Shown here: piece by piece, positions 1 to 24,935 of the stretch | Layout: every line of letters starts with the position of its first letter | Numbering within the stretch: position 1 is the first letter of the stretch | Source of the DNA: Candidatus Vampirococcus lugosii | GTDB taxonomy: Bacteria > Patescibacteriota > Gracilibacteria > Absconditabacterales > Absconditicoccaceae | Assembly: GCF_018420025.1 (NCBI RefSeq) | Contig: NZ_JAEDAM010000007.1 | Span: 1-24,935 of the forward strand | Direction of reading: 5' to 3' | Length of the DNA stretch: 24,935 nt | Position numbers and translations under genes: made by a program | The notes under the pieces: model-generated | Seen by the model: only the letters and a program-made list of their open reading frames with translations | Told to the model about the DNA's origin: nothing | Database searches by the model: none

Positions 1-1473
1 AACAAAGACAAAGAACTTAACAAAAAAAGATGATTAGCTGAAGATACTATTACAGACAATCTTATTATCAAATGAAATAATTTACTTGATTTGCATTCAT
101 TAAAAAAACAATTTGCTGGTAAAATAAAATTGATCTATATAGACCCACCTTATAATACTGGAAATGATAGTTTTGGTTATAATGATAGATTCAATCACTC
201 AACTTGGCTTACTTTTATGAAAAATAGACTGGAAGTTGCAAGAGAATTATTGAAAGATGATTGAGTTATATTTGTGCAATGTGATGATAATGAACAAGCA
301 TATTTAAAAGTTTTGATGGATGAAGTTTTTGGTAATGAAAATTTTGTTTCTGATATAGCTGTTAGGTCTTCAACTCCTAGTTGATTAAAAACAACACACA
401 AGGAAAAAACTATAATTAAACAAAGAGATAGTATAATTTTTTTTACAAAAAAAATAAATTATTTAAGAATAAATCCACAGTATTATAGAAAAGAATATTG
501 GGATAGTCATTATATGTATTTTTTTGATAGAGATAATAATGAAGTTTTAAAATTAAAAGATATTTTACTTAAAAAGTGATTAATTAGTAAAAATCAAAAA
601 TTAAATAATCTAAATATTAATGATATTAATTTCAAAGAATTTTATAAAAAAAATAAATTAAATATTTTTAGAACTGCACCAGAAATGCCAGAAAAGATAA
701 AAAAAGATTCTAAATTAAATCCTAACAAAATAATTGAATATTGAAATGAAAATCAAAAACAATTTGCTTGGAATGGTAATAGAATGACTTTTATAGATAA
801 AGCAATGAAGATTGTTGATTGAGAAGAAGTTTTAGCAAACTTATTGTGTGATTTTTGGTGAGATATTGATTTTCAAAATACACAAAATGAATGATGAGTG
901 AGTTTAAAATCTTGAAAAAAACCAGAAAAATTATTACAAAGAATAATAGAACTTTCAACTAATCCTTGAGATATAGTCTTGGATTATCACTTATGAAGTG
1001 GGACAACTACTGCCGTTGCTCACAAGATGCAAAGACAATATATAGGAATAGAACAAATGGACTACATACAAGATATTACAGTTGAGAGGATGAAAAAAGT
1101 TATAGAATGAGAACAAGGCTGAATTAGTAAAAATATAGATTGGCAATGATGATGAAATTTTGTATATATGGAAACTATGGAATCAAATCAAACTTTTGTA
1201 AATAATATAAAATCTACTGAAGATAAACAAGAACTTATTAAAATATATGAACAAATCAAACAAACTTGATTTATAAATTATAATATCAATATAAAATCAA
1301 TTGATGAAAATATACAAGAATTTGAAAACTTGAGTATAGAAAATATGAAAAAATTCTTGATATCATTGCTTGATAAAAATCTATTGTATGTAAATTACAG
1401 TGAGATAGAAGATGAAACTTATAATGTAAGTAATGAAGATAAGAGGTTGAATGATGAGTTTTATAATAATTAG
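1..1473 (+). CDS. mod: Type III restriction-modification DNA methyltransferase (Mod, N6-adenine), 5' end outside the window
   Basis: Frame 1 is open to TAG 1471-1473 if TGA=Gly. Motif IV DPPYN at 142-156. Motif I HLGSGTT at 988-1008, with the first G encoded by TGA 994-996. Also IIKGNNL, DDGVIFV, NEGGVSLKSGKKPEKLLQRII, NPGDIVLD and a C-terminal GGGNFVYME. The IV-then-I motif order is typical of beta-class type III Mod. Confidence 0.93.
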
Positions 1474-1499
1474 AATTTTTAAAAAATAAAGAATTAGTT

Positions 1500-2531
1500 A
1501 TGAAAAAAGAATTAGTAAATTCAAAAATTGATAGACAAAATATTTTAAATAATAATCTTGCAATAAATCAAATTCAAGAGCAAATTTGAATGAAATGATT
1601 TAAATTTGAATGAAAAATTTGGTTTACAAAAGAAGAAGTAACTAACTTTTTTGAAGTTACAAGAAAAACAATAGATAATTATTTAGAATCAAATGAAGAA
1701 GAATTAAGAAAAAATTGATATGAAATTTTTACAGGAAAAAGGCTTAAAGAAGCCAAAGAAGAGTTTAAGAGGGAAATTGATTACCCTCTATTTTGACAAG
1801 AAAACGGCTTATTAAAGGCAAAATCTAATTTATGAATGTTTGACTTCCGTAGTTTTTTAAATCTCTGAATGATTTTAAAAGAAAGTAAAAAAGCAGTTAA
1901 ATTAAGACAAATAATTCTTGATATTACTATTGATACAATCAATAAAAAAACTTGATGAAATACAAAATATATTAATAAAAGAGATATAGAATTTTTAGAA
2001 AGTTCTTTTAAATGAGAAAATTATAGACAAAAATTTACAGATGCTTTGAAAAACTATGTAGATATGTGAAATATTAAATATCCTATTTTTACTGATAAAG
2101 TATATGAAGTTGCTTTTTTAGAAAAAGCTAAAGAATATAAAAAAATATTAAATTTAAAAGCCAAAGATAATTTAAGAGAAACATTTTATACTGAAGTTTT
2201 AAATGCTATTGCTTGTATAGAAAACTGAATTGCAGATGAATTGGAAAAAAAAAGTCAAATTTTATGAAGAAAATTAAATCAAGTAGAAACAGAAGATATA
2301 TTTAATGAAGTTTGAAATAATTCATTTTTAAAACCACAAATTGAAGACATTAGAAATAAAATGGCTAGTCGTGATTTATGTTTTAGAGATGCTTATCATA
2401 ATAAACTTGAAAAATATATTAGTGAAGTTTGAATTGAAGATTTTGAGAAATTTATTTGAGAAAAAAGTAAAGACTTTGAAGAAATATTGAAAGATACAAG
2501 TGATGTTATTAAAAGATTAAAAAATAAATAA
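1500..2531 (+). CDS. Hypothetical helix-turn-helix DNA-binding protein (RhuM/antirepressor-like, 343 aa) embedded in the R-M operon
   Basis: ATG 1500 to TAA 2529-2531, with 20+ in-frame TGA and no TAA/TAG. Likely N-terminal HTH (WFTKEEVTNFFEVTRKTIDNYLESN). The segment LGMFDFRSFLNLGMILKESKKAVKLRQIILDI resembles the RhuM/Bro/KilAC-type core from memory. The rest looks helical. Function is not established. Confidence 0.6.
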
Positions 2532-2532
2532 T

Positions 2533-3003
2533 ATGATTATGAAAATAAATTATCCTGATATAGACAAATTGATAGAGTTTCATTATAAAATAATCCAACT
2601 TTGATTAGATAAATGAGAATGATGAAGTTTTGGTTTTTTATGATGAAAAGATAAATCCGATTTAAATAGTATAATTGAATTTATTAAAAATGATGATCAT
2701 TATCCCAAATTAGAAGATAAAATCACTCATTTGATGTTTTCTATAAATAAAAATCATATTTTTGTAGATTGAAACAAAAGAAGTAGTATTTATTTTTCAG
2801 CTTATTTTTTATCTTTAAATATTTCTGATAATGATTTAGTAAAAAGATATATTAGAGAATTAGAAGATATTACAGTATATGTAGCAGATAATAAAATTTC
2901 TAAAAATTTATTATGAGAAATAATAAATAGTATATTAAATTATGAAGAATATAATGAAGAATTAAAACTAAAAATTTTTAATTCAATAAATTTAAAGTGG
3001 TAG
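2533..3003 (+). CDS. Fic/Doc family protein (death-on-curing-type toxin, 156 aa)
   Basis: ATG 2533 lies 1 nt after the upstream stop; TAG at 3001-3003. Doc-type Fic motif HIFVDGNKR at 2755-2781, with G encoded by TGA 2770-2772. Size is typical of Doc toxins. Confidence 0.82.
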
Positions 3004-3072
3004 TTGCAAAAAATACAACAACCAATAAACAAAAAATGATATGACTTGTTTTATTATTATTAAAATAACAAA

Positions 3073-5685
3073 ATGCAAAATCAACAATTCCTATATCAAA
3101 AACTTAACACACTCTCAGAGATGTGAGCTTTAAAAAAAGATATTCCACTTTATATAAATTCAAATTTAAATCCAAATTTTGAAATAAGAGATTATCAAAA
3201 AGAAGCTTTTGCAAGATTTTCTTATTATCTTAATGATTTTCCAAATAAAAAAATACCTATTCATTTACTTTTCAATATGGCAACTTGAAGTGGTAAAACT
3301 TTCATAATGGCAAGTTTGATCTTGGAACTTTATGAAAAATGATATAGAAATTTTTTGTTTTTTGTAAATTCCACAAATATTATTGAAAAAACAAAAGATA
3401 ACTTTGTAAATAATAATTCATCAAAATACCTTTTTAATCAAAAAATAAGTTTTGATAATAAACAAATAAATATTAAAGAAGTTGATAATTTTACAACATC
3501 TCATACTGATGATATAAATATAAAATTCACTACAATACAGTGATTACATATGGATTTAACTTTTCCAAAAGAAAATGGACTTACTTATGAAGATTTTAAA
3601 GACAATAAGATAGTAATACTTTCTGATGAAGCTCATCATATAAACAGCACTACCAAAAAATCAAAATTAAATAAAACTGAAGAACTACAAAAGTCTTCTT
3701 GGGAGCAAACAGTAATGAATATATTAAAATCTCATAAAGATAATTTACTTTTAGAATTTACTGCAACAGTTGATTTACAAAATGAAAATATAGCAGAAAA
3801 ATATCTTGATAAGATTATCTATAAATATGATCTAAAACAATTTAGACTTGATGGTTATTCTAAAGAGGTTGATATTCTCAAAGCTGATATGGAACAAGAT
3901 GATAGGATATTGCAAGCAATTATACTTAGTCAGTATAGGTTGAAAGTAGCAGAAAAAAATAGAATTTACTGTAAGCCTGTAATTTTATTTAAAGCTCAAA
4001 AAACTATAGCAGAAAGTCAAACAAATCTTGAAAACTTTAATCAACTTATAAAAAACTTGAAAGTAGAAGATTTGGAGAAAATACAAAATACAACAAATGA
4101 AAAAGTTTTATTAAAAGTATTTAACTTCTTTGAAGAAAATAATCTATCTTTGCAAGATATAACAAATGAATTAAAGCAAGATTTTGCAGAAGAAAATTGT
4201 ATAAGTGCAAATGATGATAAGCAAGCAGAAAAAAATCAAATCTTATTAAATACTTTGGAAGAAAAAAATAATAGAATAAGAGCTATATTTGCAGTTCAAA
4301 AGTTAAATGAATGATGGGATGTATTAAACCTTTTTGATATAGTAAGACTTTATGATTCAAGAAGTAATGTGATAGATAAAAAAACTTGAAAAGTAAAAGT
4401 ATGACCCCAAACAATGTCAGAAGCACAACTTATATGAAGATGAGCAAGATATTTTCCATTTACTACAGATAAAGCTATTTGAGAAAGTAAATATAAAAGA
4501 AAATTTGATAAAAAAGATGATGAAGAATTAAAGATACTTGAAACATTTTATTATCATACAAGTTTTGATAATCTTTATATTACAGAGATTAAACAAGCAT
4601 TGAAAGATACTTGAATGATGGATGAAGAAGAAAAAAAAGACTTTACAATAAAACTTAAAGATAGTTTCAAAAAATCTAACTTTTATAAAAACTGATATAT
4701 CTATACTAACAAAAGAAAAGAAAAAGATAATCAAGAAGTTTCAAGTTTGGAAGAAGTATGAATGAAAATAGAAAGATTTGAATTTACTCTTCATACTGGT
4801 AAAAGTTGAGCAGTTCAAGTTTTTGAAAGTAGTGAAAATCCATCTTGAGAAAAGATAGAAAAAGAGCCTAAAAGTTTTCAAATCAAAGATATAGATATAA
4901 GAATTATCAAAAAAGCAATACAACAAAATGATTTTTATAAATTTGATAACTTAAAAAAATATATATGAAAACTTAAAAGTATTGAAGATTTTATAACAAA
5001 TTATAGATATCTTTCATCTAAAAGAATTGATTTATATAGTTCAAAAGATGTTTTAGAAAATTTAAGTAATGATGACTTATTAAAAGCAGTGTCTTCATTA
5101 TTAAAATCTATGGAAAATGAGATAAAACAACAAGAAACAAAATATGAATGAACTACTATGTTTGATGCAAAATCAATACAAGAAATGTTTAAAGAAAAAA
5201 CAATAAAAGTATCTTCTTATGAAGATTATACAAAAAATCAAGATTGGTTTGTCTTTGATAAAATAACCGCAACTAGTGAAGAAAAGTATCTTGTAGAGCT
5301 ATTTGAAAAGAAAATACAAGAATTGAATGATAAATATGAAGATATATATCTAATAAGAAATGAAAGACATTTTGCTATATATTCTTTTGAAGATGGTGAT
5401 AGATTTGAACCTGATTTTGTTCTATTTATGAAAGAAAAACAAACTAAAAAACCTTTAACTTATCAAATATTTATAGAGCCTAAATGAAGTCAGTTTAAAG
5501 ATGCAGAATGATTATTTTGAAATTCAAAAGAAGCTTGGAAAGAAAAATTTTTATCTTGAATAGATGAAAAAGCAGAAATAATAGATTCTAATTTTGGTAA
5601 TTATAAATTGATATGATTGCCTTTATATAATAAAGATTTAGAAAGTGATTTTGAAGAAGCTTTTGATGATAGATTTGGTAAATAA
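3073..5685 (+). CDS. res: Type III restriction endonuclease Res subunit (SF2 helicase plus C-terminal PD-(D/E)xK nuclease, 870 aa)
   Basis: ATG 3073 to TAA 5683-5685. Motif I MATGSGKT, with G encoded by TGA 3286-3288. DEAH box at 3625-3636. KLNEGWDVLNLFDIVRL and QLIGRGARY (motifs V/VI). C-terminal nuclease-like FEPDFVLF...IFIEPKG. It joins three separate standard-code ORFs (3355-3543, 3550-4314, 5158-5487) in one frame. Confidence 0.93.
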
Positions 5686-5806: not shown

Positions 5807-6691
5807 TTATTTACAATTATTTAAATTTGGTATTTTTCATTGTGTTAATCATGAATTTTTATTAAAATCAGAACAATATTTTGCATTTTTAAGATTCCAA
5901 GAACTTATATCTCTATCAAATTCTATAGCTCAATTAAATATATAACTTATATTATCTACATCACTTACATCCCAATTTCATATATTTTGATTAAAAGAAA
6001 TTGCTCATCTAAACATATTACTCATATTTTTAACATTACTTACATCCCAATTTCATATATTTTGATTAAAAGAACTTGCTTTTCAAAACATACTATTCAT
6101 ATTAATTACATTACCAACATCCCACTTTCATATTTCTTGATCAAAAGATCTAGCTCATCTAAACATATTACTCATATCTTTTACATTACTTACATCCCAA
6201 CTTCATATATGAGAATTAAATAAATTATTTCATCTAAACATATTACTCATATTTTCTACATTACTTGTATTCCATTTTCATAAATATTGACTAAAAGAAC
6301 TTGCTCACCTAAACATATTACTCATATCTTTTACATTACTTACATCCCAACTTCATACATCTTCATTAAAAAATTCTGCTCAATATTTCCAATCTTCAAA
6401 TAATCATTTTTCAAGTTCATCAAATCATGACATATCTTCAATATTACTAGTACATGCCGTGCTTAAATCTTTTCATTGTTTTATCCATTCTAATAATATT
6501 CATCTATTTATTACAGTATACATTTTTCAATTTAAAACTTTTGTTTCCAAAGTATCTTTTCATCTACAATAAATAATTCAATCATTTTCTTCCCAAGAAT
6601 TATTACTAACATTACTACTATTACTATCATTAGAAATTTTAAATAATAACATTATAATAATAATTATTATTATTAATGCTTTTTTATTCAT
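5807..6691 (-). CDS. DUF285 / BspA-family leucine-rich-repeat surface protein with N-terminal signal/anchor (294 aa)
   Basis: ATG (complement of 6689-6691) to TAA (complement of 5807-5809); 885 nt. N-terminus MNKKALIIIIIIIMLLF. About 6.5 copies of a 25-aa unit, F(N/D)QxIGxWDVSNVxNMSNMFRGAxS, which is the DUF285 consensus. Several conserved G residues are TGA. Confidence 0.85.
5900..6375 (-). repeat. In-frame tandem array of ~75-nt units (coding DUF285 repeats)
   Basis: The core catattactcatat..ttacattacttacatcccaa.ttcata recurs at about 6015, 6090, 6165, 6240 and 6315. A 49-nt block is identical at 6169-6217 and 6309-6357. Array boundaries are approximate. Confidence 0.8.
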
Positions 6692-6902: not shown

Positions 6903-7928
6903 ATGAGCAATACAAATGTTATAGAAAAAGAGGATATAAATCAAATTCAAGTAATAATAAATAAAAAACTTGAATGAGGTAGTTTGGAAATAATTGAATT
7001 AGATAAAAATGAAGTAAAACAAATAGATGATACTTTTGATAATATTAAAGATTTTAGAAGTTTATGAGAAAAAATAACCTCACCTGTAGATAATATAATT
7101 AATGAAACATCAAAAGTTATAAAATCTGATTTAATTATGAATACATCAAATAAATTAGAAACAGTAAATTATGATATTCAAAAAGTTTATGAAAAAATAG
7201 TAAATGAAGATTGAGCAATTTTAAGATTTTTGAAATCTATACCATTAATAGGTAATATTATTTCATATTTTATGAAAAAAAAATATAATATGAAAGAAAT
7301 TAAATGACAAATAGAAAATATTTTTTCTTGATTTGATCAATCTTATGAAAGTTTAAATAAATCTATTTATATACAAAAAAACTTTTTGGATAGTCTAGAA
7401 AAAAATCTTTGAAAAATAAATAATTATCAAAAATTTATTGATAAAAGATTAATAAATCTTGAAGAAAAATATAAAAATGAAATAGATAAAGATCAAAAAG
7501 GAAAATATAAAGTATTTATTGAACAAGTAGAATATTTTTTACAAAATATAAGAATTCTTATAGGAAATTTGGAACTTGCTAGGAAAAGAATTCTTACAAG
7601 ATTAGATTCTACAATAAAGCTTTCTTTATCTATGAATAATTCAAGACCTATATTTAAAACAATTATTAATGTGGCAATCTTGGAAACAAGTTGACAACAA
7701 GCTCTTGATGCAAGTTCTAAATATATGGAAGCAATGTGAAATGCTTTGGAAAGTATATCAGAAGATATACTTGAAGATAAAACTGAACATAAAAATGTTG
7801 AAGATAAAAATGAAGATAATTCAAATAATGAAGATAAATTAGTTGAAAATGTAAAAAAACTTAAAAATAATTTTGATGAAATTGAATGATACAGAAAAGA
7901 AATTGTAAAACAAACTCAAGAAGTTTAA
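6903..7928 (+). CDS. TelA-like (toxic anion resistance family) protein, 341 aa
   Basis: ATG 6903 to TAA 7926-7928. All-helical, coiled-coil-rich. The segment order resembles TelA/YceH from memory (LRFLKSIPLIGN..., GQIENIFSGFDQSYESLNKSIYIQKNFLDSLEKN..., LARKRILTRLDSTIKLSLSMNNSRPIFKT...). Family assignment needs an HMM check. Confidence 0.6.
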
Positions 7929-7960: not shown

Positions 7961-9004
7961 ATGTGATTTATGGACTTTTTTTGATGACAATTTATTGATA
8001 TTATCAATTGGGAAAATCCTGAAGAATTTCTTCTTGTTAAGAAATTTGATAGACCATTAGATGAAATTAAAAATAATTCTACTTTGATAGTAGATCCTTG
8101 ATATGCAGCTATATTTGTACATAATTGAAAAATAGAAGCTATACAAGATACACCTTGACAATGGACATTAGATACTGAAAATATTCCTTTTATTACATCT
8201 TTCAAAAATATACTTAGATGACTTGAATCTCCAGATAAAGCTGCTGTATATTTTTTGAAAACAACGGAAATAAGTAATCAAAAATGGGGAACTAAAAATC
8301 CTGTAAAATATGTAGATCCTGTATATAATTTTCCTATTAAACTTAGAGCTTTTTGAAATTTTACATTCAAAATATCAAATATAGAGTATTTTTGGACTCA
8401 ATATATATGAACAAGAAACGAAGTTACAGTTGATGAAATAAAAGCTACTATTGTAGATAGAATGTTACAACTTATAACAGATTCTTTTGCTGAAGTATGA
8501 TTGTCTTACAACAACATAGATTCAAATAGAATGGAAATAGCTGAAGAACTTTTCAAAAAAGTAAATGATAATATATGAAATTTATGAATTCATCTTACAG
8601 ATTTTAGAATAGAAGATACAAACTTTAGTGATGATACAGAAAGATTAATTGCAAAAATAGCAGAACAAACTGCAAATGTAAATACTATAAATCAATTACA
8701 AAATGTTAATCAACAAGCTATGCAAAATTATAAAACAACTAGACAACTTGATGCTATGGAAAAAGCAGCTGAAAATGAGTGAGCAGCTTGAGGTATGATG
8801 TGAACTTTTGTAGGAATGAATATGGGTAATCAAGCTAATGCTATGGGTAATATCAATGAACAAGATAATTATTGACAAAACAATAATTCTTGACAAGAAA
8901 GTTTGGAAGATAAATTAATGAAATTAAAAAATCTTCTTAATAAAGAACTTATAAGTGAAGAAGAATATAATGAAAAAAAGAAAGATATATTAAAATGATT
9001 TTAA
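7961..9004 (+). CDS. SPFH/Band-7 domain protein of the YdjI (virion-core-like) type with C-terminal SHOCT domain, 347 aa
   Basis: ATG 7961 to TAA 9002-9004. The N-terminus MGFMDFFGGQFIDIINWENPEEFLLVKKF matches the conserved MGxxDkxxGEFIDxIEW start of YdjI-like proteins. The C-terminus LEDKLMKLKNLLNKELISEEEYNEKKKDIL is a SHOCT-type motif. Confidence 0.82.
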
Positions 9005-9005: not shown

Positions 9006-9335
9006 ATGAAATATAGACCAGATTGAAAACAATTTATAGCAGATATATGGTTTGAAGATAATATACCAAATATAGATAATTTTGTTCAAAAAATTACAAA
9101 TTGAGTAAAACTTAATATAGTAGATAAATATTCTTACAATTTTTGAATTTGAGAAACTATAATTTATATATTATCTGAAAGCCATTTTGCTATACATACA
9201 TATCCAGAATATAATTATATATCAATTGATATATACACTTGTTGAAAATCAAATCCCTATGATGCAGAACAAATTATAAAGGAAAGTTTTTCTGTGAAAA
9301 AAATAAATATACATAAATTACAAAGATGAATATAA
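9006..9335 (+). CDS. speD: S-adenosylmethionine decarboxylase proenzyme, small bacterial class (109 aa)
   Basis: ATG 9006 lies 1 nt after the SPFH stop; TAA at 9333-9335. The self-processing/pyruvoyl signature [25 protein letters not shown] matches (E)SH..(I)HT(W/Y)PE....(D)(V/I)(F/Y)TCG. Confidence 0.82.
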
Positions 9336-14418: not shown

Positions 14419-14466
14419 ATGTATATATGTAATCAATGTAATAATTACATTAAAAAATAATATTTT

Positions 14467-14550: not shown

Positions 14551-14559
14551 ATTAGTAAT

Positions 14560-14588
14560 ACTACTAATTTTAATTTAGTAGTTTTTTT
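14560..14588 (+). terminator. Rho-independent terminator after tRNA-Leu
   Basis: Stem ACTACTAA (14560-14567) / TTAGTAGT (14575-14582), followed by a T-run to 14588. Confidence 0.6.
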
Positions 14589-15172: not shown

Positions 15173-15892
15173 TTATATGTCATAAAATATTTTTTCAAAA
15201 TTATCGTTTTTTAAATTTAAATTAAATTTATTATAATTTAATCATTCCAAATTTGAAAGAGAAAATCTAAATAATATAAGCTCATTTTTATATTGTAAAT
15301 ATTTAATAATTTTTTTATCATTATCACTTAATAAAAGAAAATCTGAAAAAATTATAATTATTCTTTTTTTATTATTTCACTTTTCTTTAAGTAAAAAATC
15401 AGAAAGTTTTGAAGTATATTTAAATCAAAAATTTGGAAAACTAAAAACTTTATATCTTGGTATATTTCAATATATTAAATTTTTAACTTTTCTTCACAAT
15501 CAAATATTATTTCATATTTTTTTATAATTTATTTTATTTCATGAAAAATATGAAACAACAATATTTGATTTATATTTTCTTGAAAAAAATAATAACTGTT
15601 CAAATATAGAAAATATTTTTTCCTTTACAACATATTTTCAATTATAACCACTCCAATTTTTATTTATATCAAAAAAAACTAATATTTCTGCTTCTTTTGG
15701 TTGTTTATATAAATTAACTATTAAATCTTTTGATTTAGAACTTAACTTCCAATTTATATGTCTAATATCATCTCAAACTGTATAAGTTTTTGTATCCTGC
15801 AATTCAATTCAATCTCATTTAAAGTATGAATTAAAATCTCATAATATTTTTCAAGATAATAATTTTTTAAATTTATACTCAAATATATTCAT
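15173..15892 (-). CDS. DUF58 domain protein (VWA-like, normally MoxR-associated), 239 aa
   Basis: FKGDGIELQDTKTYTVGDDIRHINWKLSSKSKDLIVNLYKQPKEAEILVFFDINKNW matches the DUF58 core G.G.EF...R.Y..GDD.R.IDWK..A+...L.V......E......D.S.SM. Confidence 0.72.
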
Positions 15893-15910: not shown

Positions 15911-17167
15911 TTAAAGTCAACAAACATATTCTTTATCATTCCATTTTACTTTACCAAAATTAGTAACTTGTATTTTTTCATGTCATTTTCAAGCAAGCAA
16001 TATTATATCTCAAGAATTTGATATTTCATTTGCCAAATCTATTGCATTAGCTCTATTAGGAATAATATAATAATCATTTCATAATTTTCTATTTACTCAT
16101 TTTGATATTTCATCAATTATTTGATATTTATCTTCAGTATCAGGATCATCATCAGTAATGATAACAACATCACTTAAATTATCAACTTTCTCTCACATTT
16201 GTGGTCTTTTAAATTTATCTCTATTACCAGGAGCACCAAATACTGTAATTATTTTTGTATTATCTGAAATTTCTTTCAAAAAAGTTAAAACACTTTCTAA
16301 TCAATTTGGAGTATGAGCAAAATCTATAAACCAATTTTTATTATTATGAAATAAATACTCCATCCTACCACTTAATGGTAAAAAATTTTCCAAAGAAACT
16401 ATAATATCTTCTATTTTTATTCAAGAAATTAATCAAGCACTAAAAGAAGCTAGTATATTATAAACATTAAATTTACCAAGTAAGGAAACACTAACAGGAT
16501 ATGTTTTTCAAAGATAAAAAACTTCAAAACTAGTTTTATCAAAATTTAATTCTATATTATTTGCTTTTATTCAAGCATTAGTATTTATACTAAAATCAAT
16601 TGATTTATCAAATCATATATCTTCATACCAAATTCTTCATGTTCTATCATCTTTTGGAAGAACTGCCAATTTTTCATTTTTTGAATTCAACAAAATGGAA
16701 TCAAATAATTTCTTTTTTGTTTCAACATAAGTTTCAAAATCACCATGATAGTCCAAATGTTCTGGAGTAATATTTGTCAAAATTCACATATCAAATTCAA
16801 CTCATTCAAATCTATATTGATCAAGTCAATGAGAACTTACTTCCAAAACTGCATATTTACATCACTTTTCTTTTGCATAAGCAAGAATTTTTTGTAATTT
16901 AAAAGGATTTAAAGAAGTCATTTTGGAATTATTATCAATTTCTTCATCTCATATTTTTATTGAAATTGTAGTTACCAATAAAGTTTTTCATAAATTATCA
17001 TTATATATTTTATGTAACAAATTACAAGTAGTACTTTTTCCATCAGTTCAAGTTACTCAAACTATAAACATACCTTGAGAAGGTTTTCAATTAATTATAG
17101 TAGCAATATTTGCTAAACTTTTTTTATATATTTTATAAAATATACTTTTTCTCAAAAAATCTTTCAT
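15911..17167 (-). CDS. murE: UDP-N-acetylmuramoyl-L-alanyl-D-glutamate--2,6-diaminopimelate (or L-Lys) ligase MurE, 418 aa
   Basis: VGVTGTDGKSTT (first G of GTDGKS is TGA, complement of 17048-17050), EVSSHGLDQYR, TNITPEHLDYHG, LLGKFNVYN, GRMEY, IDFAHTPNGLE, FGAPGNRDKFKRPQMG, TDDDPDTED, LAGKGHE. Confidence 0.9.
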
Positions 17168-17291: not shown

Positions 17292-17582
17292 TTATTTAAT
17301 AGCTTTTTTAAATTCAGCACCAGCTTTAAAAGTAGGAAGACTCATAGCTTCAATCCGTATTTTTTCAGATGTTTTTGGATTCCTACCTTCTCTTGCTTCT
17401 CTTTTTGATTTCTTAAAAGTACCAAAACCTTGTATTCTTACTTCTTCTTCTTCCTTAACACCTTCAATTATACAATCAATAAGTGTATTAAGCATATCAG
17501 CTGATAATTTTTTGGAAACTTTATGATCCAAATCTCACAATCTATCTGCAAGTTTTGATATCAACTCTGTTTTTGTCATCAT
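17292..17582 (-). CDS. hup: DNA-binding protein HU/IHF family, 96 aa
   Basis: MMTKTELISKLADRLGDLDHKVSKKL...IQGFGTFKKSKREAREGRNPKTSEKIRIEAMSLPTFKAGAEFKKAI. This extends the track ORF 17292-17531 upstream through one TGA to ATGATG at 17582. Confidence 0.9.
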
Positions 17583-17788: not shown

Positions 17789-18340
17789 TTATTTTAATTT
17801 AGATTTTAACTTATTTATAGCCCTTGAAGCCCTTTGTCTTACATTATCAATACTAATTCAAAGTATTGTAGAAATTTCTTTATTTGATAATTCTTCAACA
17901 TATTTTAAATGAATAATTTCTTTTGATAAATCATCAAGATTTTTTATTTCTTTATTAATCAAAGAATATTCGTAATCAGATTGTAAAATATTTAAAGATT
18001 CTGATTCTTGTGAAACAAGATCATTAATATCATTATCTTTTCATAAACTTGCATATTCATCTAATTTAAAATTTGATCATTTAAAATAATCTTTCATAGT
18101 ATTTTTAAATACTGTCCAAACCCAAGAATTTAAATTATAATTAGTATTATATTTTCATATTCAATTCCATATTTTTAAATAAAAATCTGATATAATATCA
18201 TAAATTTCTGAATCAGAAAGAAAATAATTTGATTTTAAATAACGGAAAAATATATCAATAGATTTTAAATAAAATTCATTAAATGCTGATTTATCTTTTT
18301 TTATAAGTTTATCTATAAAATCATTTGAAAAATTAAACAT
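17789..18340 (-). CDS. RNA polymerase sigma factor, sigma-70 family ECF-type, 183 aa
   Basis: Region 2-like FNEFYLKSIDIFFRYL ... LNSWVWTVFKNTMKDYF. Region 4 HTH LSKEIIHLKYVEELSNKEISTILGISIDNVRQRASRAINKLK. Confidence 0.8.
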
Positions 18341-18393: not shown

Positions 18394-18849
18394 CTAAAAA
18401 AATTTTTTATTAGTTTTTTTATTTTCATCAGTTTTTTCTTCGTTATTTGATGATTCAATATTAGTTCAATCATCATATTCAAAATTTCTATTTTGTAAAT
18501 CTTGAATTAAATCTATTATATTTGGATCATAATGAGCAATTTTTTCCAAAAGCTCAGCTGCTAATTCTCATCAAACTCTAACAGCATATTGATATTTTGA
18601 TAATTCTCAAACAACATTTTTTAAATCATAATTATCTTGTCTTGCTTTTTTTATAGAATCTAAAAGAACTTCATTTTGAGCTTCATATTCCTTTTTTTCA
18701 TGTTCAATCTTTTCCATTTCTTCTTTTAATTTATTATTGGAAGAACTAAGATTATTTACAATATCTCTCTGACCAAACTGATAATAAAAATATAAATATC
18801 AAATTATAAGTCCAAAAGAAAAAGATAAAATTAAATATACTATAATCAT
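18394..18849 (-). CDS. Hypothetical single-pass membrane protein with coiled-coil region, 151 aa
   Basis: ATG (complement of 18847-18849) to TAG (complement of 18394-18396); 456 nt. N-terminal TM helix MIIVYLILSFSFGLIIGYLYFYY, then a heptad-like KLKEEMEKIEHEKKEYEAQNEVLLDSIKKARQDN stretch. No family recognised. Confidence 0.6.
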
Positions 18850-19258: not shown

Positions 19259-20278
19259 ATGAAATATACCAAAATATTTTTTTATATTTTTACAGTTTTA
19301 TCTATATTTTTTTGATTTACAAATTCTATTTTTTATAAATTTTCTCATTTTCCTGCCAACAATTTTGAATTTGAAGAATTTTATGAAAAAAATTATAATA
19401 TATTAAAGTATTCTTGAAATACTAATGGTTCAAGTAATAAAAAAATTAATTTATCAGATATACAAGATGTAATTAATTCTTTTCCTTATATTTGATATAT
19501 GCAATATACTTATTATCAAAGATATTGATTTGAAAATACAAAAGATAATAATTTAGATTTAACTAATTTACATAGAACTAAATTAAATTATCCAATTTTT
19601 TCTATAGCATATGAAAAAAATTATATTAGTTTCATCTCAATTAATAATTTAAATGATCAACAAATAAATACAATTTGAGAAAAATATCAGTTTGAATCTT
19701 GATCTATAATAAGTAAATATCTTGATGACTGGTTTATAATTAGACAAAATTCACCCAAAGATGTATCATATGTATATGAATATGAAAAATATTTTGATAT
19801 ATTGCAAAAATTTATTGAAAAAAATTTAGTAAATTATCAAATATGACAAAATCCATTTTGATATCATGAAATAAATGATTTTTCAGATAATATAATTCAA
19901 ATTTGAACATTAAAAAATAATAAGTTAAATTGAATAATATTAGATCTTAAAAAAAATATGCCTTGAATTTTAGTTTCTGTTGAAAAATATTGACAAAATT
20001 ATTTAAGAGATGAAATTATGATGCAAAATATACAAAATCTTTATTTTAATGTAAAAAAATATAAAGAAACAATGTGATGATTACCTCAAGATTTATGAAG
20101 TTTAAATCCTAATTTTTTGGATATTACAAGTTTTAATGATTACTATCATAAATTAAAATTTACAAAAGAAAGTAATTTATGTTATAGTGCTTGATTTATT
20201 CCAAAATCTAATGATTTCAAAAGATTATTTTCATTTGAAATAAAATGAGAATATTGGATGTCTTATGTTTGTTATTAA
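19259..20278 (+). CDS. Hypothetical secreted/membrane-anchored protein, 339 aa
   Basis: ATG 19259 to TAA 20276-20278, with about 20 in-frame TGA and no TAA/TAG. N-terminal hydrophobic signal MKYTKIFFYIFTVLSIFFGF. No recognisable motifs. Confidence 0.65.
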
Positions 20279-20342: not shown

Positions 20343-21491
20343 TTGGCAAATTTTGTAATATTTTTTATAAAAATATATCAATATACAATATCACCTGATA
20401 AATGAATAGCATCAATTTGGTTAAAATGAAAAATATGTATACATACTCCTCATTGTAGTAAATATAGTATACAAGTATTAAAAAGATATTGATTTTATCC
20501 TTGAATAATAAAAGTTATGGAAAGAGTTTCTTCATGCCATCCTTGGAATGATAATAAATATGATCCAGCATATTTAAAAACAGTTTTTTTTAGTAGTGCA
20601 GAAATTTGAGTTCCATTTTTGGAAAAATTAAATAAAGATAAAAGATATGAAATAAGTGCTATAATTACACAACCTGATAGACCATACGGTAGATGACAAA
20701 AAATAAATGAAAATGTAATAAAAAAAACTGCTAAAAAATTAAATATAGAAAATATATTAACACCAAATAAAATAAATCCAAATACTTCACAAGAATGAAA
20801 AGATTTTGTTGAAAAAATTAAACAAATAAATCCTGATATATTTATTGTTATTGCTTATTGAAAAATAATTCCTATACAATTACTTAATATTCCTCATAAA
20901 TGACCTATCAATATACATTGATCATTATTACCAAAATATCGTGGTGCATCTCCTATTCAATCTGTTTTTTTGAATGAAGAAGAAAAAACATGAATTACAT
21001 TGATGAAAATGGATGCAAAAATGGATACATGAAATATAATAAAACAAATTTCTTTTGATATAAAATTTAATTGGACTGTACAAGATATAATTGAAAAATT
21101 TATTGAAATCTGACCAAAATTTGTTTTGGATAATATACGAAAATATTCAAAAAAAGAAATTTGAGATATTAAACAAGATGAAACTAAAGCTATATATTGT
21201 AATAAAATTATTAAAGAAGATTGAAAAATTGATATTTTTAATGATTCTATTGAAAATATTTACAAAAAATATAGAGCATATAAATTATGGCCAAAAATAT
21301 GGTTTGAACTAAATAATAAAAGATTTATTATAGAATATTTGCAAATAGATCAAAATAATTTTTATTTATATAAATCATTATCAATTTTGGACAATGAAAA
21401 TTTAAATAAATCAATATTAAATATTAAAATAAAACCTGAATGAAAAAAATCAATATCTTGGAAAGAATTTAAAAATAATTATATAAATTAA
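20343..21491 (+). CDS. fmt: Fusion ORF: YidD (membrane protein insertion efficiency factor) domain plus methionyl-tRNA formyltransferase (Fmt), 382 aa
   Basis: Putative TTG start at 20343; the frame opens after TAA 20292-20294 and has no upstream ATG. Residues 1-76, FFIKIYQYTISP...CIHTPHCSKYSIQVLKRYGFYPGIIKVMERVSSCHPWNDNKYDP, match YidD. They run directly into Fmt: TVFFSSAEIGVPFLEKL, TQPDRPYGRGQK, VIAYGKIIP, INIHGSLLPKYRGASPIQ, TGITLMKMDAKMDTGNI. TAA at 21489-21491. Confidence 0.82.
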
Positions 21492-21528: not shown

Positions 21529-21720
21529 TTAATCTTTATGTATTTTAAATCAAGCTATATGTACTCATTTTTCTTTTGCTTTCTTTTTGAGAAAAAAATA
21601 TCAAATGATCATACCTATTCAATTTATTATAATTCAAATTCAAATTAAATAAGCTACTATTTCAGGAAATATAATTATAAGAATACCAAAAATTATCATA
21701 AATATTCAATATATAATCAT
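21529..21720 (-). CDS. Small two-TM membrane protein (DUF3096-like), 63 aa
   Basis: Checked codon by codon. MIIYGIFMIIFGILIIIFPEIVAYLIGIGIIINGIGMIIGYFFLKKK... The family guess is from memory. Confidence 0.5.
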
Positions 21721-21832
21721 AGTTTTTTTAATATATTTAAGTTGATAAATTCTTGTTTTTGATTATAAATTGATTATACATATATATGAAATATATTCAA
21801 GATAAAATTTATAATAATTAATTTATAAAAAT

Positions 21833-22756
21833 ATGATACATTTACATTGACATAGTCATTATAGTTTATTGGAAGCTGTTGGTAATCCTTCAAAAATAGT
21901 AAATAAAGCAAAAGAATTAAATATGGAAAGTATTGCTATTACTGATTATTATGGTATGTATTGAATAATTGAATTTTATCAAATAGCAAAAAAATCTTGA
22001 ATTAAACCTGTAATTTGAGTTGAAATAAATTTTACGGAAGATTTTGATAGATCATGAAGTGATTGATTTACTAGTTTAGTTTTGTTAGCAAAAAATAATG
22101 AATGATATCAAAATTTAATGAAATTAGTGAGCTATGCAAATATTAATTGATTTATAAATACACCTAGTGTAGATTTGAAATGAATAAAAAAATATAATGA
22201 ATGATTGATAGCTTTTTTTGGTTGAGAAGAGTCACAAATATGAAAAATGATTTTAAATAATGAAAATGATGATTTTATCAAAGATAAAATAAAATATTGG
22301 AAAGATATATTTGGAAATGATAATTTTTTGTTGGAAATAATTGCTCAAGATGAATCAAAAAATAAATATCTAAAAATTGTAAATAATAAAATTGTTGAAA
22401 TAGCAAATATTACAAATACTAAAATGATAGTAAATAATAATTTTTGTTATATAGAAAAATCTGATAAAGATGCATATGAAGCATTAATTAGTATTAAAGA
22501 TTCAAAAGCATATCAAGCTTGAAATATAAAATGAGATTTTCATATAATGTCAAAAGAAGAAATTGAAAATATTTTACAAAAAAATTGATATACTGATGAA
22601 ATTATTAAAAATTTAATAAATAATAATATACAAATATCTCAAAATTTAAATGTAGAAATGGATTTATGAAAAATTCTTTTTCCAAATTATGAATCTGATG
22701 ATAATATAAAAGATTTATATGAATCATTAAAAGATATTTTAGTAGAAAAAAATTAA
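21833..22756 (+). CDS. dnaE: DNA polymerase III alpha subunit (DnaE) N-terminal PHP-domain fragment, 307 aa; truncated or split
   Basis: MIHLHGHSHYSLLEAVG, IAITDYYGMYGIIEFYQ, GIKPVIGVEI, LVLLAKNNEGYQNLMKLVS, EGLIAFFGGEES, NFLLEIIAQ, NNNFCYIEKSDKDAYEAL, FHIMSKEEIENI, ISQNLNVEMDLGKILFPNY. It ends at TAA 22754-22756, where full-length DnaE (over 1000 aa) would continue into the palm domain. Confidence 0.85.
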
Positions 22757-23697
22757 TATTTTAATCAATCGTATAATCACTTAAAAACAGATTTTATAGT
22801 ATACCGTTTTTTTTCTTTTACAAAAAATAATATAAGAAATAAAAACCATATAGTCTGAATTCATAATCAAAATATATAAAAAATTATTTTTGATATAAAG
22901 TTAGCATTTTGTTTAATTAACATAATTCTATTTCTAGATTTTTGATATGCCATATTAGGTTCTCATATAAATGATTTTTCTGCTTTATTTTTTGGTCTTT
23001 CCATATGATATATTTTTAGTTCATTTGAAACATATATTTTATATCAAGCATTGCTTAATGTCCAAGTAAAATTAAGGTCTTCATAAACAAAATTGAAATA
23101 TTCATCAAAAGGATGTTTTTTAAAAATTTCAGTCTTTGCAAAAATTGAATTTCATCATATCATTTTAACTTTTTTAAATTTTTTATTTTTATTGTAATTT
23201 AAAACTACTTTCCCAAAAAATGGATTTAAAGATTTAATTCCTTGTGATTGAATTATTCAGGTTTTTCTATACATAACTGTTGGACAGAGAATATTTTTTT
23301 CAAATTTTGTTTTATTTATTTCTGTTTTATTATTTAAATATTTATATTCAGATAAAGTTTTTTTAAAAAAGTCTTTTTCAAAAACATTATCATCATCTAT
23401 GATATATAAATACTCAGTTTTAACTAATCCAATACCAAAATTTCTTACATAGCTTACTCAATTATTTGGACAGAAATTATAATTAATATTTGAAACTAAT
23501 TCTATTCTTCAAAAAATATTATTATCTATATTTTTACTTAAAAAATATTTGGAAACATTAAATTCATCTTTTGATAAGAATTTATCAATAATTATATAAA
23601 CTTTTTGAGCTAAAATATCTTGTTTGGAAATACTTTCTATTATATCTTGTAATTTTGATATATTTCATCTTGATGGAATAACTACTGAAAAATTCAT
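22753..23697 (-). CDS. Family 2 (GT-A) glycosyltransferase with C-terminal TM helix, 314 aa
   Basis: MNFSVVIPSRGN..., NNGVSYVRNFGIGLVKTEYLYIIDDDNVF (DxD), FNFVYEDLNFTWTL, TM tail IIFYIFGLGIQTIWFLFLILFF. I verified the 3' tail codon by codon. Its stop (complement of 22753-22755) overlaps the dnaE-fragment stop by 2 nt (4 nt of overlap between the two annotated CDS ranges). Confidence 0.8.
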
Positions 23698-23793
23698 TTT
23701 TTATAAATGATTATATATATAATATTGAATATATATTTAATGATTTATTATTTATTTTCAAGTTTATTTTATATTTACAGATTTTTTATTTTC

Positions 23794-23842
23794 AAAAAAA
23801 AAATTACTCAAAATAACAATTTTTGTTGTTATCTAGAGTAAT
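23794..23842 (-). terminator. Rho-independent terminator after the upstream minus-strand gene
   Basis: On the minus strand: ATTACTC..ATAACAA-loop-TTGTTAT..GAGTAAT nested stems, followed by T10 (plus-strand A-run 23794-23803). Confidence 0.55.
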
Positions 23843-23851
23843 TAAATATAT

Positions 23852-24935
23852 TTAATAATTACTTCTTACATTAAACATAGTTTGTAAATTTATTTGATAC
23901 TTTTTCAATGTGTCAGAATTTACTCTTCATGCCCAAGCTCATCAATAAAGTTTAGCTTCAATATTTAATTTTATATATGGATTTATTTGAGTTCAGTCTT
24001 CATTCCAAGATAAATTTGGATTCTTGCTTGGATATATTGCCAAGTTCCAATCAGTTATTGTAATTTCATTTGAAAATATATTTACCCAACCATCATCTTT
24101 ATCATCTGGTAATTTATAATCAGAATATGCTCATCAAACAGAATCACCACTACATTTGAATCATAAACCATAATCGCATGCCCAAGTATCTATTTGTCAA
24201 TCATACATTCAAGGAGAATTTAGATCAAAATCATGTTTTTTACCAGCATCAAATCATCTTAATCTCAACATTTGAAGTGTATACAATTTATTTGTATCAT
24301 CATCTATACTTCATGAATTATTCCGATCACCAGTACCTACCAAAGCTCTTCTTATCAAAATTCTCTGGTCTCATGCCTTATTTTTTAGATATATTTCTTG
24401 AACATTTTTATTTTTAAATAGAGAATCAGGTCAATGTCATAAATCCAAATCATCATCATCTCATACTGCTCATCATGTACCACTTACATTATCTCATACA
24501 TCCATAAATTGTCTAGCATATTGTCAATAAGATTGAGGTTTTCATACTAAATCAGTATCATTCCAACATCAATTTCGATCTTCTATACCATCACTAGACG
24601 ACCACTCACTTAAATCATCTTTCTTTCATCTGTAAATTTTATTAGGATCTGGAACTGTAGTATTAATACTACTACAATGATATAGTTGCCAATTATTTCA
24701 ATCAACTCAAGTTTGCCAATTTTTATTTCCGTAAGCAGTAAAATTATCACAATATCATTCACTATTAACTCAATTTGGTGATCAAGTCCAAACAAAACTA
24801 TCTCATCATCATCATCATCAACTACATCATACGATAGATCTATTGAAATATTCTTCATAATCTATAGTAAAATCTGATACTACAGCATTTAATCTCTCTA
24901 GCATAAAATATGTATTTTCAGTAAGAGTTTGTCTA
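23852..24935 (-). CDS. Hypothetical secreted Gly/Cys/Trp/Asp-rich protein, C-terminal 361 codons (5' end outside the window)
   Basis: 361 consecutive codons without TAA/TAG in a very AT-rich sequence, ending at TAA (complement of 23852-23854). Contains about 35 in-frame TGA, including a (TGA)6 run, and seven Cys. No family recognised. Confidence 0.7.

What the first reader, a model, noticed from the sequence alone, without database searches (positions are those of the whole stretch)
1..24935. TGA is read as glycine (genetic code 25); the standard ORF track is an artefact
Under code 11 the window shows only ~22 short ORFs. Treating TGA as sense gives ~28 contiguous genes that terminate only at TAA or TAG. 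TGA sits on invariant Gly positions in unrelated families. Examples: Res Walker A GSGKT (3286-3288), Mod FxGSGTT (994-996), Doc DGNKR (2770-2772), MurE GTDGKS (complement of 17048-17050), LepB GDNR, SSB LIGR, and the DUF285 FRGA/IGxW repeats. Conserved Trp positions (SSB KWED, DUF285 WDV) use TGG, which excludes the Mycoplasma-type TGA=Trp code. TGA appears to be the dominant Gly codon: by hand count, ~19 TGA against ~8 GGN in the Mod fragment. This places the fragment in Gracilibacteria or Absconditabacteria (candidate phyla radiation). The recoding itself is already described for these lineages, but every downstream interpretation depends on it.
Basis: partly seen in the sequence, partly recalled or inferred. 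Interest (0 to 1): 0.65.

Follow-up and report, generated by a model that had tools for sequence, protein, structure and literature searches.

The report
TGA-as-glycine Absconditabacteria genome fragment
This 25-kb contig comes from an uncultured Absconditabacteria (SR1) bacterium that reads the stop codon TGA as glycine, a known recoding, and it very probably also reads the rare codons CGA and CGG as tryptophan, so even the official "code 25" table mistranslates a few residues.

Summary
Under code 11, ORFs of at least 100 aa cover 6% of the window. With TGA as sense they cover 90%, giving 27 protein genes plus one tRNA that end only in TAA or TAG. Shuffled sequence reaches at most 5%.

TGA is Gly, not Trp. 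At 88 TGA positions in 7 unrelated families aligned to PDB homologs, 51% of cells are Gly (background 7%) and 0.5% are Trp. All 14 Pfam domains score Gly > X > Trp (1819, 1509 and 1358 bits). All four cited codon coordinates are correct. TGA supplies 81% of Gly codons (341 against 79 GGN).

The lineage is Absconditabacteria rather than Gracilibacteria. The best named hits are Absconditabacteria, and an 11-gene block is syntenic with Ca. Absconditicoccus praedator.

One refinement: plain code 25 is incomplete. As Shulgina & Eddy (2021) predicted, CGA and CGG pair with TGG in orthologs (24 pairings against 2 with AGR). Three of the window's seven such codons lie in Trp columns. One, in HU, lies at a Lys column.

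tRNA-Gly(UCA) and loss of RF2 cannot be tested on this contig. Public databases also hold this organism's proteins mistranslated with TGA=Trp. The phenomenon is known, so interest is low to moderate.

The parts
1..24935 (.). Whole contig: chromosomal fragment of an Absconditabacteria bacterium, GC 20.6%, in which TGA is a sense (Gly) codon and only TAA/TAG terminate
1..1473 (+). g01 Type III R-M Mod (N6_N4_Mtase), 5'-truncated by the contig end; 19 TGA, 8 GGN
1500..2531 (+). g02 unknown 343-aa protein between mod and res; 16 TGA
   Evidence: no Pfam hit
2533..3003 (+). g03 Fic/Doc family protein; 8 TGA, including the DGNKR Gly at 2770-2772
3073..5685 (+). g04 Type III R-M Res helicase-nuclease; 22 TGA, including the Walker A Gly at 3286-3288
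5807..6691 (-). g05 DUF285 repeat protein; 22 TGA, 1 GGN; Pfam bits 317 (Gly), 213 (X), 162 (Trp)
6903..7928 (+). g06 unknown 341-aa protein; 9 TGA
7961..9004 (+). g07 SPFH/Band 7 plus SHOCT protein; 18 TGA
9006..9335 (+). g08 S-adenosylmethionine decarboxylase-like protein; 6 TGA
9375..10043 (+). g09 zinc-ribbon protein (weak DUF4178 match); 12 TGA
10178..10513 (-). g10 HSP20; 5 TGA; carries the CGA codon at 10319-10321
10541..11119 (-). g11 membrane protein (weak bPH_2 match); 7 TGA
11138..11911 (-). g12 ABC-2-like membrane protein; 6 TGA
11941..13236 (-). g13 CNNM/CBS (CorC-like) transporter; 17 TGA
13274..13912 (-). g14 signal peptidase I (LepB); 13 TGA, including the GDNR Gly
13936..14337 (-). 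g15 SSB; true start is at 14337. The mechanical ORF runs on to 14535 and overlaps the tRNA gene
14466..14551 (+). tRNA-Leu(CAA), the only RNA gene in the window; found at the same position in relatives
14570..15160 (-). g16 HD-domain protein; 5 TGA; carries the CGA codon at 14687-14689
15173..15892 (-). g17 DUF58-like protein; 14 TGA
15911..17167 (-). g18 MurE; 23 TGA; six TGA columns are Gly in all four PDB homologs
17292..17582 (-). g19 HU; 1 TGA against 5 GGN; carries the CGG codon at 17355-17357
17789..18340 (-). g20 sigma-70 family factor; 5 TGA
18394..18849 (-). g21 small membrane/coiled-coil protein; 5 TGA
19259..20278 (+). g22 unknown 339-aa protein; 17 TGA
20343..21491 (+). g23 YidD plus methionyl-tRNA formyltransferase in one ORF; 16 TGA; carries the CGA codon at 21138-21140
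21529..21720 (-). Small 63-aa DUF308 membrane protein with 8 in-frame TGA; absent from the ORF lists of at least 80 aa and from the gene calls for L015
21833..22756 (+). g24 stand-alone PHP-domain protein (307 aa, resembles the DnaE N-terminus); 16 TGA
22753..23697 (-). g25 family 2 glycosyltransferase; 12 TGA; carries the CGG codon at 22804-22806
23852..24934 (-). g26 pseudopilin-like (type II secretion) protein, truncated at the contig end; 34 TGA, with six in a row at 24803-24820; carries CGA at 24575-24577 and CGG at 24323-24325
10319..10321 (-). CGA codon (g10 residue 65); orthologs have TGG in L007 and L009 and CGA in L006, so it most likely encodes Trp
14687..14689 (-). CGA codon (g16 residue 158); orthologs have TGG in L006 and L007 and CGA in L009, so it most likely encodes Trp
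24323..24325 (-). CGG codon (g26 residue 204); the homolog column is W 36, 'R' 41, F 24, Y 4, an aromatic/Trp column
22804..22806 (-). CGG codon (g25 residue 298); homologs have Y, F, L, I, K or N here, which weakly favours Trp over Arg
17355..17357 (-). CGG codon (g19 HU residue 76); all three orthologs have AAA (Lys), which fits Arg better than Trp. This is the one contrary case
21138..21140 (+). CGA codon (g23 residue 266); the column is variable (A, P, Q in PDB homologs), so it is uninformative
24575..24577 (-). CGA codon (g26 residue 120); gap-rich column of G 66 and W 37, probably TGA translated under two codes, so it is uninformative

Best explanation
The window is a complete 24.9-kb metagenomic contig from the chromosome of an uncultured, very AT-rich (20.6% GC) member of the Absconditabacteria (SR1; order Absconditabacterales, related to Ca. 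Absconditicoccus praedator). Its translation system reads UGA as glycine. Only UAA and UAG terminate, and UGA is the main glycine codon (81% of Gly codons). Shown here: UGA is sense, it stands at Gly positions and not at Trp positions, and the lineage placement. Inferred from published work on this clade and not testable on this contig: decoding by a dedicated tRNA-Gly(UCA) and loss of release factor 2. AT mutational pressure would then have moved Gly codons from GGN to UGA. In addition, the rare codons CGA and CGG (7 in the window) are most likely read as tryptophan by a Trp-type tRNA(UCG), as predicted for this order. The correct table is therefore code 25 plus CGA/CGG=Trp. That step is shown at clade level and for 3 of the window's 7 codons, and inferred for the others.
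For: TGA is sense: coverage by ORFs of at least 100 aa is 6% under code 11 and 90% with TGA sense. Shuffles reach at most 5%, and standard-code control loci are 83-95% covered under code 11. Pfam domains of 20 proteins run across multiple TGAs.

TGA is Gly: I aligned 7 families to PDB homologs with TGA masked as X, covering 88 TGA positions. 58 positions have Gly in at least one homolog and 42 have a Gly majority. Of 220 aligned cells, 113 are Gly (51%, background 7.3%) and 1 is Trp (background 0.8%). The query's own TGG columns give W in 8 of 24 cells. All 14 Pfam domains score Gly > X > Trp, summing to 1819, 1509 and 1358 bits. Composition agrees: TGA plus GGN is 5.5% of codons and TGG is 0.8%.

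Lineage: the nearest MurE homologs are 61-64% identical, and the named ones are Candidatus Absconditabacteria, Absconditicoccus and SR1. The block sigma70, HU, MurE, DUF58, HD, tRNA-Leu(CAA), SSB, LepB, CNNM, two membrane proteins, HSP20 is in the same order in A. praedator CP054059.1 and in two MAG contigs. TGA is also 70-85% of Gly codons in four relative loci: two MAG contigs, A. praedator and a Gracilibacteria MAG.

CGA/CGG are Trp: in codon-level ortholog alignments, CGA pairs with TGG 20 times and CGG with TGG 4 times, against 2 pairings with AGA/AGG. In the g26 and MurE families every conserved Trp column is a mixture of W and 'R', while Arg columns have 0% W. DNA of two homologs shows that the 'R' in mixed columns is always CGA or CGG and the R in pure-Arg columns is always AGA or AGG. 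The A. praedator tRNA(UCG) has A1:U72 and G73 and lacks A20, which is Trp-type by the published rule.

Literature: PMC8629427, PMC13092985, PMC4032931 (proteomic proof of UGA=Gly in a related lineage) and PMC10746230.
Against: The window contains no tRNA-Gly(UCA), tRNA(UCG) or release-factor gene; its only tRNA is Leu(CAA). The decoding machinery is therefore inferred, not seen. About half of the TGA cells do not align with Gly in distant PDB homologs, which is expected at variable positions; the query's own GGN columns reach only 75%. For CGA/CGG the window has only 7 codons: 2 CGA and 1 CGG are clearly in Trp columns, 1 CGG is weakly so, 2 are uninformative, and the HU CGG aligns with Lys in all three orthologs. 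Pfam scoring of R against W at these sites differs by less than 2 bits and decides nothing. There is no protein-level (mass spectrometry) evidence for this organism.
Confidence: 0.9

Rival explanations
1. Plain NCBI code 25: UGA is Gly and every other codon, including CGA and CGG (Arg), keeps its standard meaning in this organism.
For: The HU CGG codon aligns with Lys in three orthologs, a position where Arg is the conservative choice. HSP20 scores 1.3 bits higher in Pfam with R than with W. Only 7 such codons exist in the window, so its own evidence is thin.
Against: CGA/CGG pair with TGG 24 times against 2 pairings with AGR in ortholog codon alignments that include the window's own g10 and g16 codons. 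W/'R' mixtures occur only in Trp columns of two families and were confirmed at DNA level. The closest named relative has a Trp-type tRNA(UCG). The reassignment is published for this order (PMC8629427, PMC13092985).
Confidence: 0.08
2. UGA is tryptophan (code 4, as in Mycoplasma and Spiroplasma). Some public pipelines evidently assumed this for the organism.
For: Low GC and TGA as sense are also typical of code-4 organisms. Database entries P0242 and P0122 are this organism's g25 and g26 translated with W at every TGA.
Against: Only 1 of 220 TGA cells aligns with Trp in PDB homologs, against 113 with Gly. All 14 Pfam domains score lower with W than with X or G. Trp content would be 5.3% and Gly 1.0%. 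TGG, not TGA, sits at conserved Trp positions. Ortholog alignments show no TGA-TGG pairing.
Confidence: 0.01
3. Standard code 11, with the in-frame TGAs being pseudogenisation, sequencing error, selenocysteine or programmed read-through.
For: None beyond the formal possibility.
Against: There are 341 in-frame TGAs (4.5% of codons) spread over all 26 gene-model ORFs, and TAA and TAG never occur in frame. An independent assembly of the same organism is identical at 2396 of 2397 codons. TGA positions are conserved across orthologs (820 TGA-TGA pairings). TGA stands at catalytic Gly motifs.
Confidence: 0.005
4. The contig is a phage or other mobile element that carries its own recoding, not a piece of a bacterial chromosome.
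For: Code-25 phages of Absconditabacteria exist (PMC10746230). The left third (g01-g09) holds a Type III R-M system, a Fic/Doc gene and a DUF285 protein, and it is not syntenic with relatives.
Against: The contig carries housekeeping genes (MurE, LepB, SSB, Fmt, HU, a sigma factor, tRNA-Leu) in the same order as the A. praedator chromosome. No phage hallmark domains were found.
Confidence: 0.01

Closest known systems
NCBI translation table 25 (Candidate Division SR1 and Gracilibacteria code: UGA = Gly)
   Same: UGA is sense and encodes Gly. UAA and UAG are the only stops. UGG remains Trp. The genome is low-GC and belongs to the CPR. TGA is used heavily as a Gly codon, as reported before (PMC10746230, PMC8629427, PMC4032931).
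   Different: Table 25 keeps CGA and CGG as Arg. In this lineage they behave as Trp codons. The GC of 20.6% is at or just below the 0.21-0.53 range reported for the clade (PMC8629427), although this is one contig and not a whole genome.
Absconditabacterales extended code predicted by Codetta (UGA = Gly plus CGA/CGG = Trp; Shulgina & Eddy 2021, PMC8629427)
   Same: CGA and CGG are very rare here (5.3 and 4.0 per 10,000 codons), AGA dominates Arg codons (173), and CGA/CGG fall in Trp columns. The closest named relative has a Trp-type tRNA(UCG).
   Different: One of the three CGG codons (in HU) lies at a basic Lys position. The tRNAs of this organism itself were not seen.
Candidatus Absconditicoccus praedator (CP054059.1), a cultivated-in-coculture Absconditabacteria predator
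   Same: It shares an 11-gene syntenic block plus tRNA-Leu(CAA), the stand-alone PHP protein next to the GT2 gene, a similar TGA share of Gly codons (75% against 81%) and the same codon behaviour.
   Different: MurE is only 57% identical, g26 57% and GT2 55%. GC is 28-29% against 20.6%. Downstream of HSP20 the window has an R-M/Doc/DUF285 region where the relative has the tRNA cluster and rpsT.
Code 4 (Mycoplasma/Spiroplasma: UGA = Trp)
   Same: UGA is sense in an AT-rich reduced genome, and only UAA and UAG are stops.
   Different: The amino acid is Gly, not Trp. The phylum is unrelated.

Membership tests
Genetic code 25 (UGA = Gly) | UGA occurs in frame within conserved genes, and genes terminate only at UAA or UAG | tested here: met
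   341 in-frame TGA; stops are 23 TAA and 3 TAG; coverage 6% under code 11 and 90% with TGA sense
Genetic code 25 (UGA = Gly) | UGA columns correspond to Gly in homologs from standard-code organisms | tested here: met
   113 of 220 cells are Gly against a 7.3% background, over 88 positions in 7 families; all 14 Pfam domains score Gly > X > Trp
Genetic code 25 (UGA = Gly) | UGG, not UGA, encodes Trp | tested here: met
   TGG columns give W in 8 of 24 cells and TGA columns in 1 of 220; ortholog alignments show no TGA-TGG pairing
Genetic code 25 (UGA = Gly) | tRNA-Gly with anticodon UCA is present | not testable with these tools
   The window is the whole contig and holds only tRNA-Leu(CAA). The fetched relative loci (L001-L002, L006-L014) contained no tRNA(UCA)
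Genetic code 25 (UGA = Gly) | Release factor 2 (prfB) is absent | not testable with these tools
   Absence cannot be shown from a 25-kb contig. No RF gene is in the window
Genetic code 25 (UGA = Gly) | The organism belongs to the Absconditabacteria/Gracilibacteria clade | tested here: met
   The best named homologs are Absconditabacteria, Absconditicoccus and SR1, and the region is syntenic with A. praedator
Genetic code 25 (UGA = Gly) | All other codons keep their standard meaning | tested here: not met
   CGA/CGG pair with TGG (24 pairings against 2 with AGR) and fall in Trp columns. The window-level evidence is limited to 7 codons, one of them contrary
Absconditabacterales code with CGA/CGG = Trp (PMC8629427) | CGA and CGG are rare, and Arg is encoded mainly by AGA | tested here: met
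   CGA 4, CGG 3, AGA 173 and AGG 17 of 7585 codons
Absconditabacterales code with CGA/CGG = Trp (PMC8629427) | CGA/CGG occupy conserved Trp positions | tested here: met
   At clade level. In the window: g10 and g16 CGA and g26 CGG-204 are in Trp columns, g25 CGG is weakly so, two are uninformative, and the HU CGG is at a Lys column
Absconditabacterales code with CGA/CGG = Trp (PMC8629427) | tRNA(UCG) and/or tRNA(CCG) carry Trp identity (G73, no A20) | not testable with these tools
   Not present in the window. It is met in the relative A. praedator: L009 20119-20192 has A1:U72, G73 and G20
Code 4 (UGA = Trp) | UGA columns correspond to Trp in homologs | tested here: not met
   1 of 220 cells is W; Pfam scores fall when W is substituted

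The most novel reading that the evidence does not exclude
In this very AT-rich Absconditabacteria lineage the meanings of CGA and CGG may have separated, or CGG may be decoded ambiguously. CGA would be Trp while CGG is still, or again, read as Arg at some sites. The hint is the HU CGG codon at a conserved basic position of the DNA-binding arm. That would be a case where a UCG/CCG tRNA pair carries two meanings within one wobble pair, something Shulgina & Eddy argued is hard to achieve.
Probability: 0.06. Interest if true: 0.55.

Novelty: new member of a known kind. Interest (0 to 1): 0.25.

Why it matters
The biology is not new. UGA=Gly in SR1 and Gracilibacteria has been known since 2013 and confirmed by proteomics, and the CGA/CGG=Trp extension was predicted in 2021.

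The practical consequences are real. Under code 11 the contig looks almost non-coding. Under code 4, which at least one public pipeline applied to this same organism, every TGA-encoded glycine becomes tryptophan: 12 residues in g25 and 34 in g26. Under the official code 25, seven probable Trp residues are still called Arg. Any annotation, structure prediction or phylogeny of this contig, and of many database homologs, depends on using the right table.

The contig also adds an unusually AT-rich lineage (about 20% GC, MurE at most 64% identical to anything found) to a clade with few characterised members. It independently supports the Codetta prediction through codon-level ortholog comparisons.

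Tried and rejected
(1) The genome-contig scan with MurE returned only distant standard-code relatives at 27-35% identity. The peptide patterns probably failed on TGA-coded genes. I used those loci as code-11 controls.

(2) The listing of cluster members timed out.

(4) Res (g04) has no PDB sequence homolog at E below 1e-3, so it did not enter the PDB tally.

(5) I first read P0242 (96%) and P0122 (90%) as close relatives, and a G-versus-W column in g25 as TGA sitting at a conserved Trp. One search showed the DNA is identical to the window and one search showed these are code-4 translations, so I rejected that reading.

(6) I suspected g24 was a truncated DnaE. I rejected this because the same ~306-aa stand-alone PHP gene lies next to the GT2 gene in A. 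praedator.

(7) Scoring R against W at CGA/CGG sites with Pfam was uninformative.

(8) ARAGORN on the fetched relative loci (L001-L002, L006-L014) found no tRNA(UCA).

(9) Rfam found only the tRNA.

(10) Campbell et al. 2013 (PMC3619370) is not held in the library, so it is cited only through other papers.

Full report
**Observation**

The window is 24,935 bp at about 20.6% GC. Under the bacterial code it holds 19 ORFs of at least 60 aa. Only 3 reach 100 aa, and they cover 6% of the sequence.

If TGA is treated as sense, 30 ORFs of at least 100 aa cover 90%, the longest being 870 aa. Making TAG sense changes nothing (6%). Making TAA sense gives only short overlapping ORFs. In 50 shuffles, stop-to-stop TGA-sense coverage never exceeds 5%, against 94% for the real sequence. 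Five standard-code loci fetched later are 83-95% covered under code 11, against 16% for the window.

My gene model has 26 ORFs, a 63-aa DUF308 gene found in a gap and tRNA-Leu(CAA). Stop codons are TAA in 23 genes and TAG in 3.

The Mod fragment count of 19 TGA against 8 GGN is exact.

**Which amino acid TGA encodes**

In frame there are 341 TGA, 79 GGN and 61 TGG among 7585 codons. If TGA is Gly, the proteins are 5.5% Gly and 0.8% Trp. If TGA is Trp, they are 1.0% Gly and 5.3% Trp, which is not credible.

For an independent test I masked TGA as X and aligned seven unrelated proteins to PDB sequences, which come from organisms with known codes. The proteins were MurE, LepB, SSB, Fmt, Mod, the PHP protein and CNNM/CBS (tallied).

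- 88 distinct TGA positions were covered.
- 58 align with Gly in at least one homolog, and 42 have a Gly majority.
- Of 220 aligned cells, 113 are Gly (51% against a 7.3% background) and 1 is Trp (0.5% against 0.8%).
- The query's own GGN columns give 75% Gly, and its TGG columns give 33% Trp and no Gly.
- Gly columns conserved in every aligned PDB homolog are all TGA: MurE 37, 40, 102, 249, 357 and 395; the LepB GDNR Gly; SSB 10, 25 and 79; Fmt 173, 187, 217, 230 and 257; the Mod FxGxG Gly.

Across 14 Pfam domains in 10 proteins, the summed scores are 1819 bits with Gly, 1509 with X and 1358 with Trp. Every domain ranks Gly > X > Trp. DUF285 alone goes 317, 213, 162. So TGA is Gly, and code 4 is excluded.

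**Lineage**

The protein database holds the window's own MurE on a contig of 24,935 bp, so the window is a complete contig. The nearest MurE homologs are 61-64% identical. The named hits are Candidatus Absconditabacteria, Ca. Absconditicoccus (57%), SR1 (54%) and, further off, Gracilibacteria (52%). Hits for g26 and g25 give the same picture.

The block sigma70, HU, MurE, DUF58, HD, tRNA-Leu(CAA), SSB, LepB, CNNM, two membrane proteins, HSP20 (window g20 to g10) is in the same order in two MAG contigs and in the Ca. Absconditicoccus praedator chromosome CP054059.1. It is not in the SR1 RAAC1 or Gracilibacteria loci.

TGA dominance among Gly codons is shared by relatives: 85%, 74% and 75% in the three syntenic loci and 70% in a Gracilibacteria locus, but 30% in the higher-GC RAAC1 locus. 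It has been noted in the literature (PMC10746230).

**Refinement: code 25 is not the whole table**

Shulgina & Eddy (PMC8629427) predicted that Absconditabacteria also read CGA and CGG as Trp. A 2026 paper treats this as accepted for Absconditabacterales (PMC13092985). The window has 4 CGA and 3 CGG in frame, against 173 AGA.

- In codon-level alignments of 12 ortholog groups (window, L006, L007, L009), CGA pairs with TGG 20 times and CGG with TGG 4 times. They pair with AGA/AGG only twice.
- In 120-member alignments of the g26 and MurE families, every conserved Trp column is a W/'R' mixture (24-60% 'R'). Arg columns have 0% W, and no pure-W column exists.
- The DNA of two homologs shows that 'R' in mixed columns is always CGA or CGG, and R in Arg columns is always AGA or AGG.
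- ARAGORN found a tRNA(UCG) in the A. praedator locus. I read it as A1:U72, G73 and G20, with no A20. That is Trp-type by the published rule.

For the window's own seven codons:

- g10 CGA and g16 CGA have TGG in two orthologs each.
- g26 CGG-204 lies in a column of W, 'R', F and Y.
- g25 CGG lies in a column of Y, F, L and I, which is weak support.
- g23 CGA and g26 CGA-120 are uninformative.
- The HU CGG aligns with AAA (Lys) in all three orthologs. This is the only contrary datum, and Pfam scoring there is neutral.

**Mechanism: what is shown and what is inferred**

Shown here: UGA is sense and stands for Gly, UAA and UAG are the stops, UGG is Trp, and CGA/CGG behave as Trp at clade level and at three window sites.

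Inferred from the literature on this clade (PMC8629427, PMC4032931): a tRNA-Gly(UCA) decodes UGA and RF2 is absent. Neither can be tested on a 25-kb contig whose only tRNA is Leu(CAA).

**A database caveat found along the way**

Contigs from Logan assemblies of SRR13241708 and SRR13241709 are the same organism: 2396 of 2397 aligned codons are identical. Their stored proteins P0242 and P0122 are g25 and g26 with W at all 12 and all 34 TGA codons. They were therefore called under code 4.

Many database MurE homologs likewise show W at invariant-Gly columns. G/W-mixed columns in alignments of this clade therefore mark TGA codons, not real variation.

**Verdict**

The phenomenon is already known, and the contig is a new, unusually AT-rich member of a known recoded clade. 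The useful addition is that the correct translation needs UGA=Gly and, very probably, CGA/CGG=Trp. Interest is low to moderate.

Noticed in passing
L015 (Logan SRR13241708_18) and L016 (SRR13241709_902); proteins P0242 and P0122; window 15911-24934: The same organism appears in two public sequencing runs, with 2396 of 2397 codons identical. Its proteins there are stored with TGA translated as Trp (code 4). Many database homologs in this clade carry the same error, which produces G/W-mixed columns in alignments.
   Followed up: yes
window 17292-17582 (-), g19 HU: HU uses 5 GGN and only 1 TGA for Gly, against 81% TGA overall (Fisher p = 0.0011). This suggests that the one presumably highly expressed gene here avoids TGA. 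This HU also has a 5-aa insertion (DLDHK) and Ser in place of the conserved Gly of RNPxTG, compared with three orthologs.
   Followed up: partly
window 24803-24820 (-), in g26: Six consecutive in-frame TGA codons (TCATCATCATCATCATCA on the + strand) encode a GGGGGG run in a pseudopilin-like protein that is 12% Gly.
   Followed up: partly
window 21529-21720 (-): An uncalled 63-aa ORF with 8 in-frame TGA matches DUF308 (29.1 bits, cutoff 25). It is a small two-helix membrane protein that is missing from the gene calls for the identical contig L015.
   Followed up: yes
window 21833-22756 (+), g24; L017 9062-9982: A stand-alone 307-aa PHP-domain protein aligns with the N-terminal 290 residues of DnaE and stops there. 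The same ~306-aa gene sits next to the GT2 gene in A. praedator, so it is a conserved separate gene and not a truncated DnaE.
   Followed up: yes
window 20343-21491 (+), g23: YidD (residues 3-75) and methionyl-tRNA formyltransferase (81-378) lie in one uninterrupted ORF, which is also called as a single 389-aa protein in L015. I did not resolve whether this is a true fusion or two genes with an internal start.
   Followed up: partly
window 1-5685 (+), g01-g04: A Type III restriction-modification pair (Mod and Res) has two genes inserted between them: an unknown 343-aa protein and a Fic/Doc toxin-like protein. TGA makes up about 70-76% of Gly codons in Mod and Res, so the system is adapted to the host code and is not a recent import.
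   Followed up: no
window 1-10177, compared with L006, L007 and L009 downstream of HSP20: Synteny with relatives ends after HSP20. Relatives continue with a cluster of about ten to twelve tRNA genes (including tRNA-Gly(UCC)) and rpsT. The window instead has zinc-ribbon, AdoMetDC, SPFH, DUF285 and R-M/Doc genes on the opposite strand, which may be a rearrangement or a genomic island.
   Followed up: partly
window 5928-6371, within g05 (-): A 75-bp tandem repeat of 5.9 copies at 78% identity underlies the DUF285 repeats. Each protein repeat has two TGA-encoded Gly residues (MFRGA and IGxW).
   Followed up: partly
window 13936-14535 (-) and 14466-14551 (+): The mechanical SSB ORF extends 66 codons upstream across the tRNA-Leu(CAA) gene. 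The true SSB start is the Met at 14337, and the two in-frame CGC codons lie in the spurious extension.
   Followed up: yes
L009 20119-20192 (+): The A. praedator tRNA that ARAGORN labels 'tRNA-Arg(tcg)' has A1:U72 and G73 and lacks A20. These are Trp identity features, consistent with CGA/CGG=Trp.
   Followed up: yes
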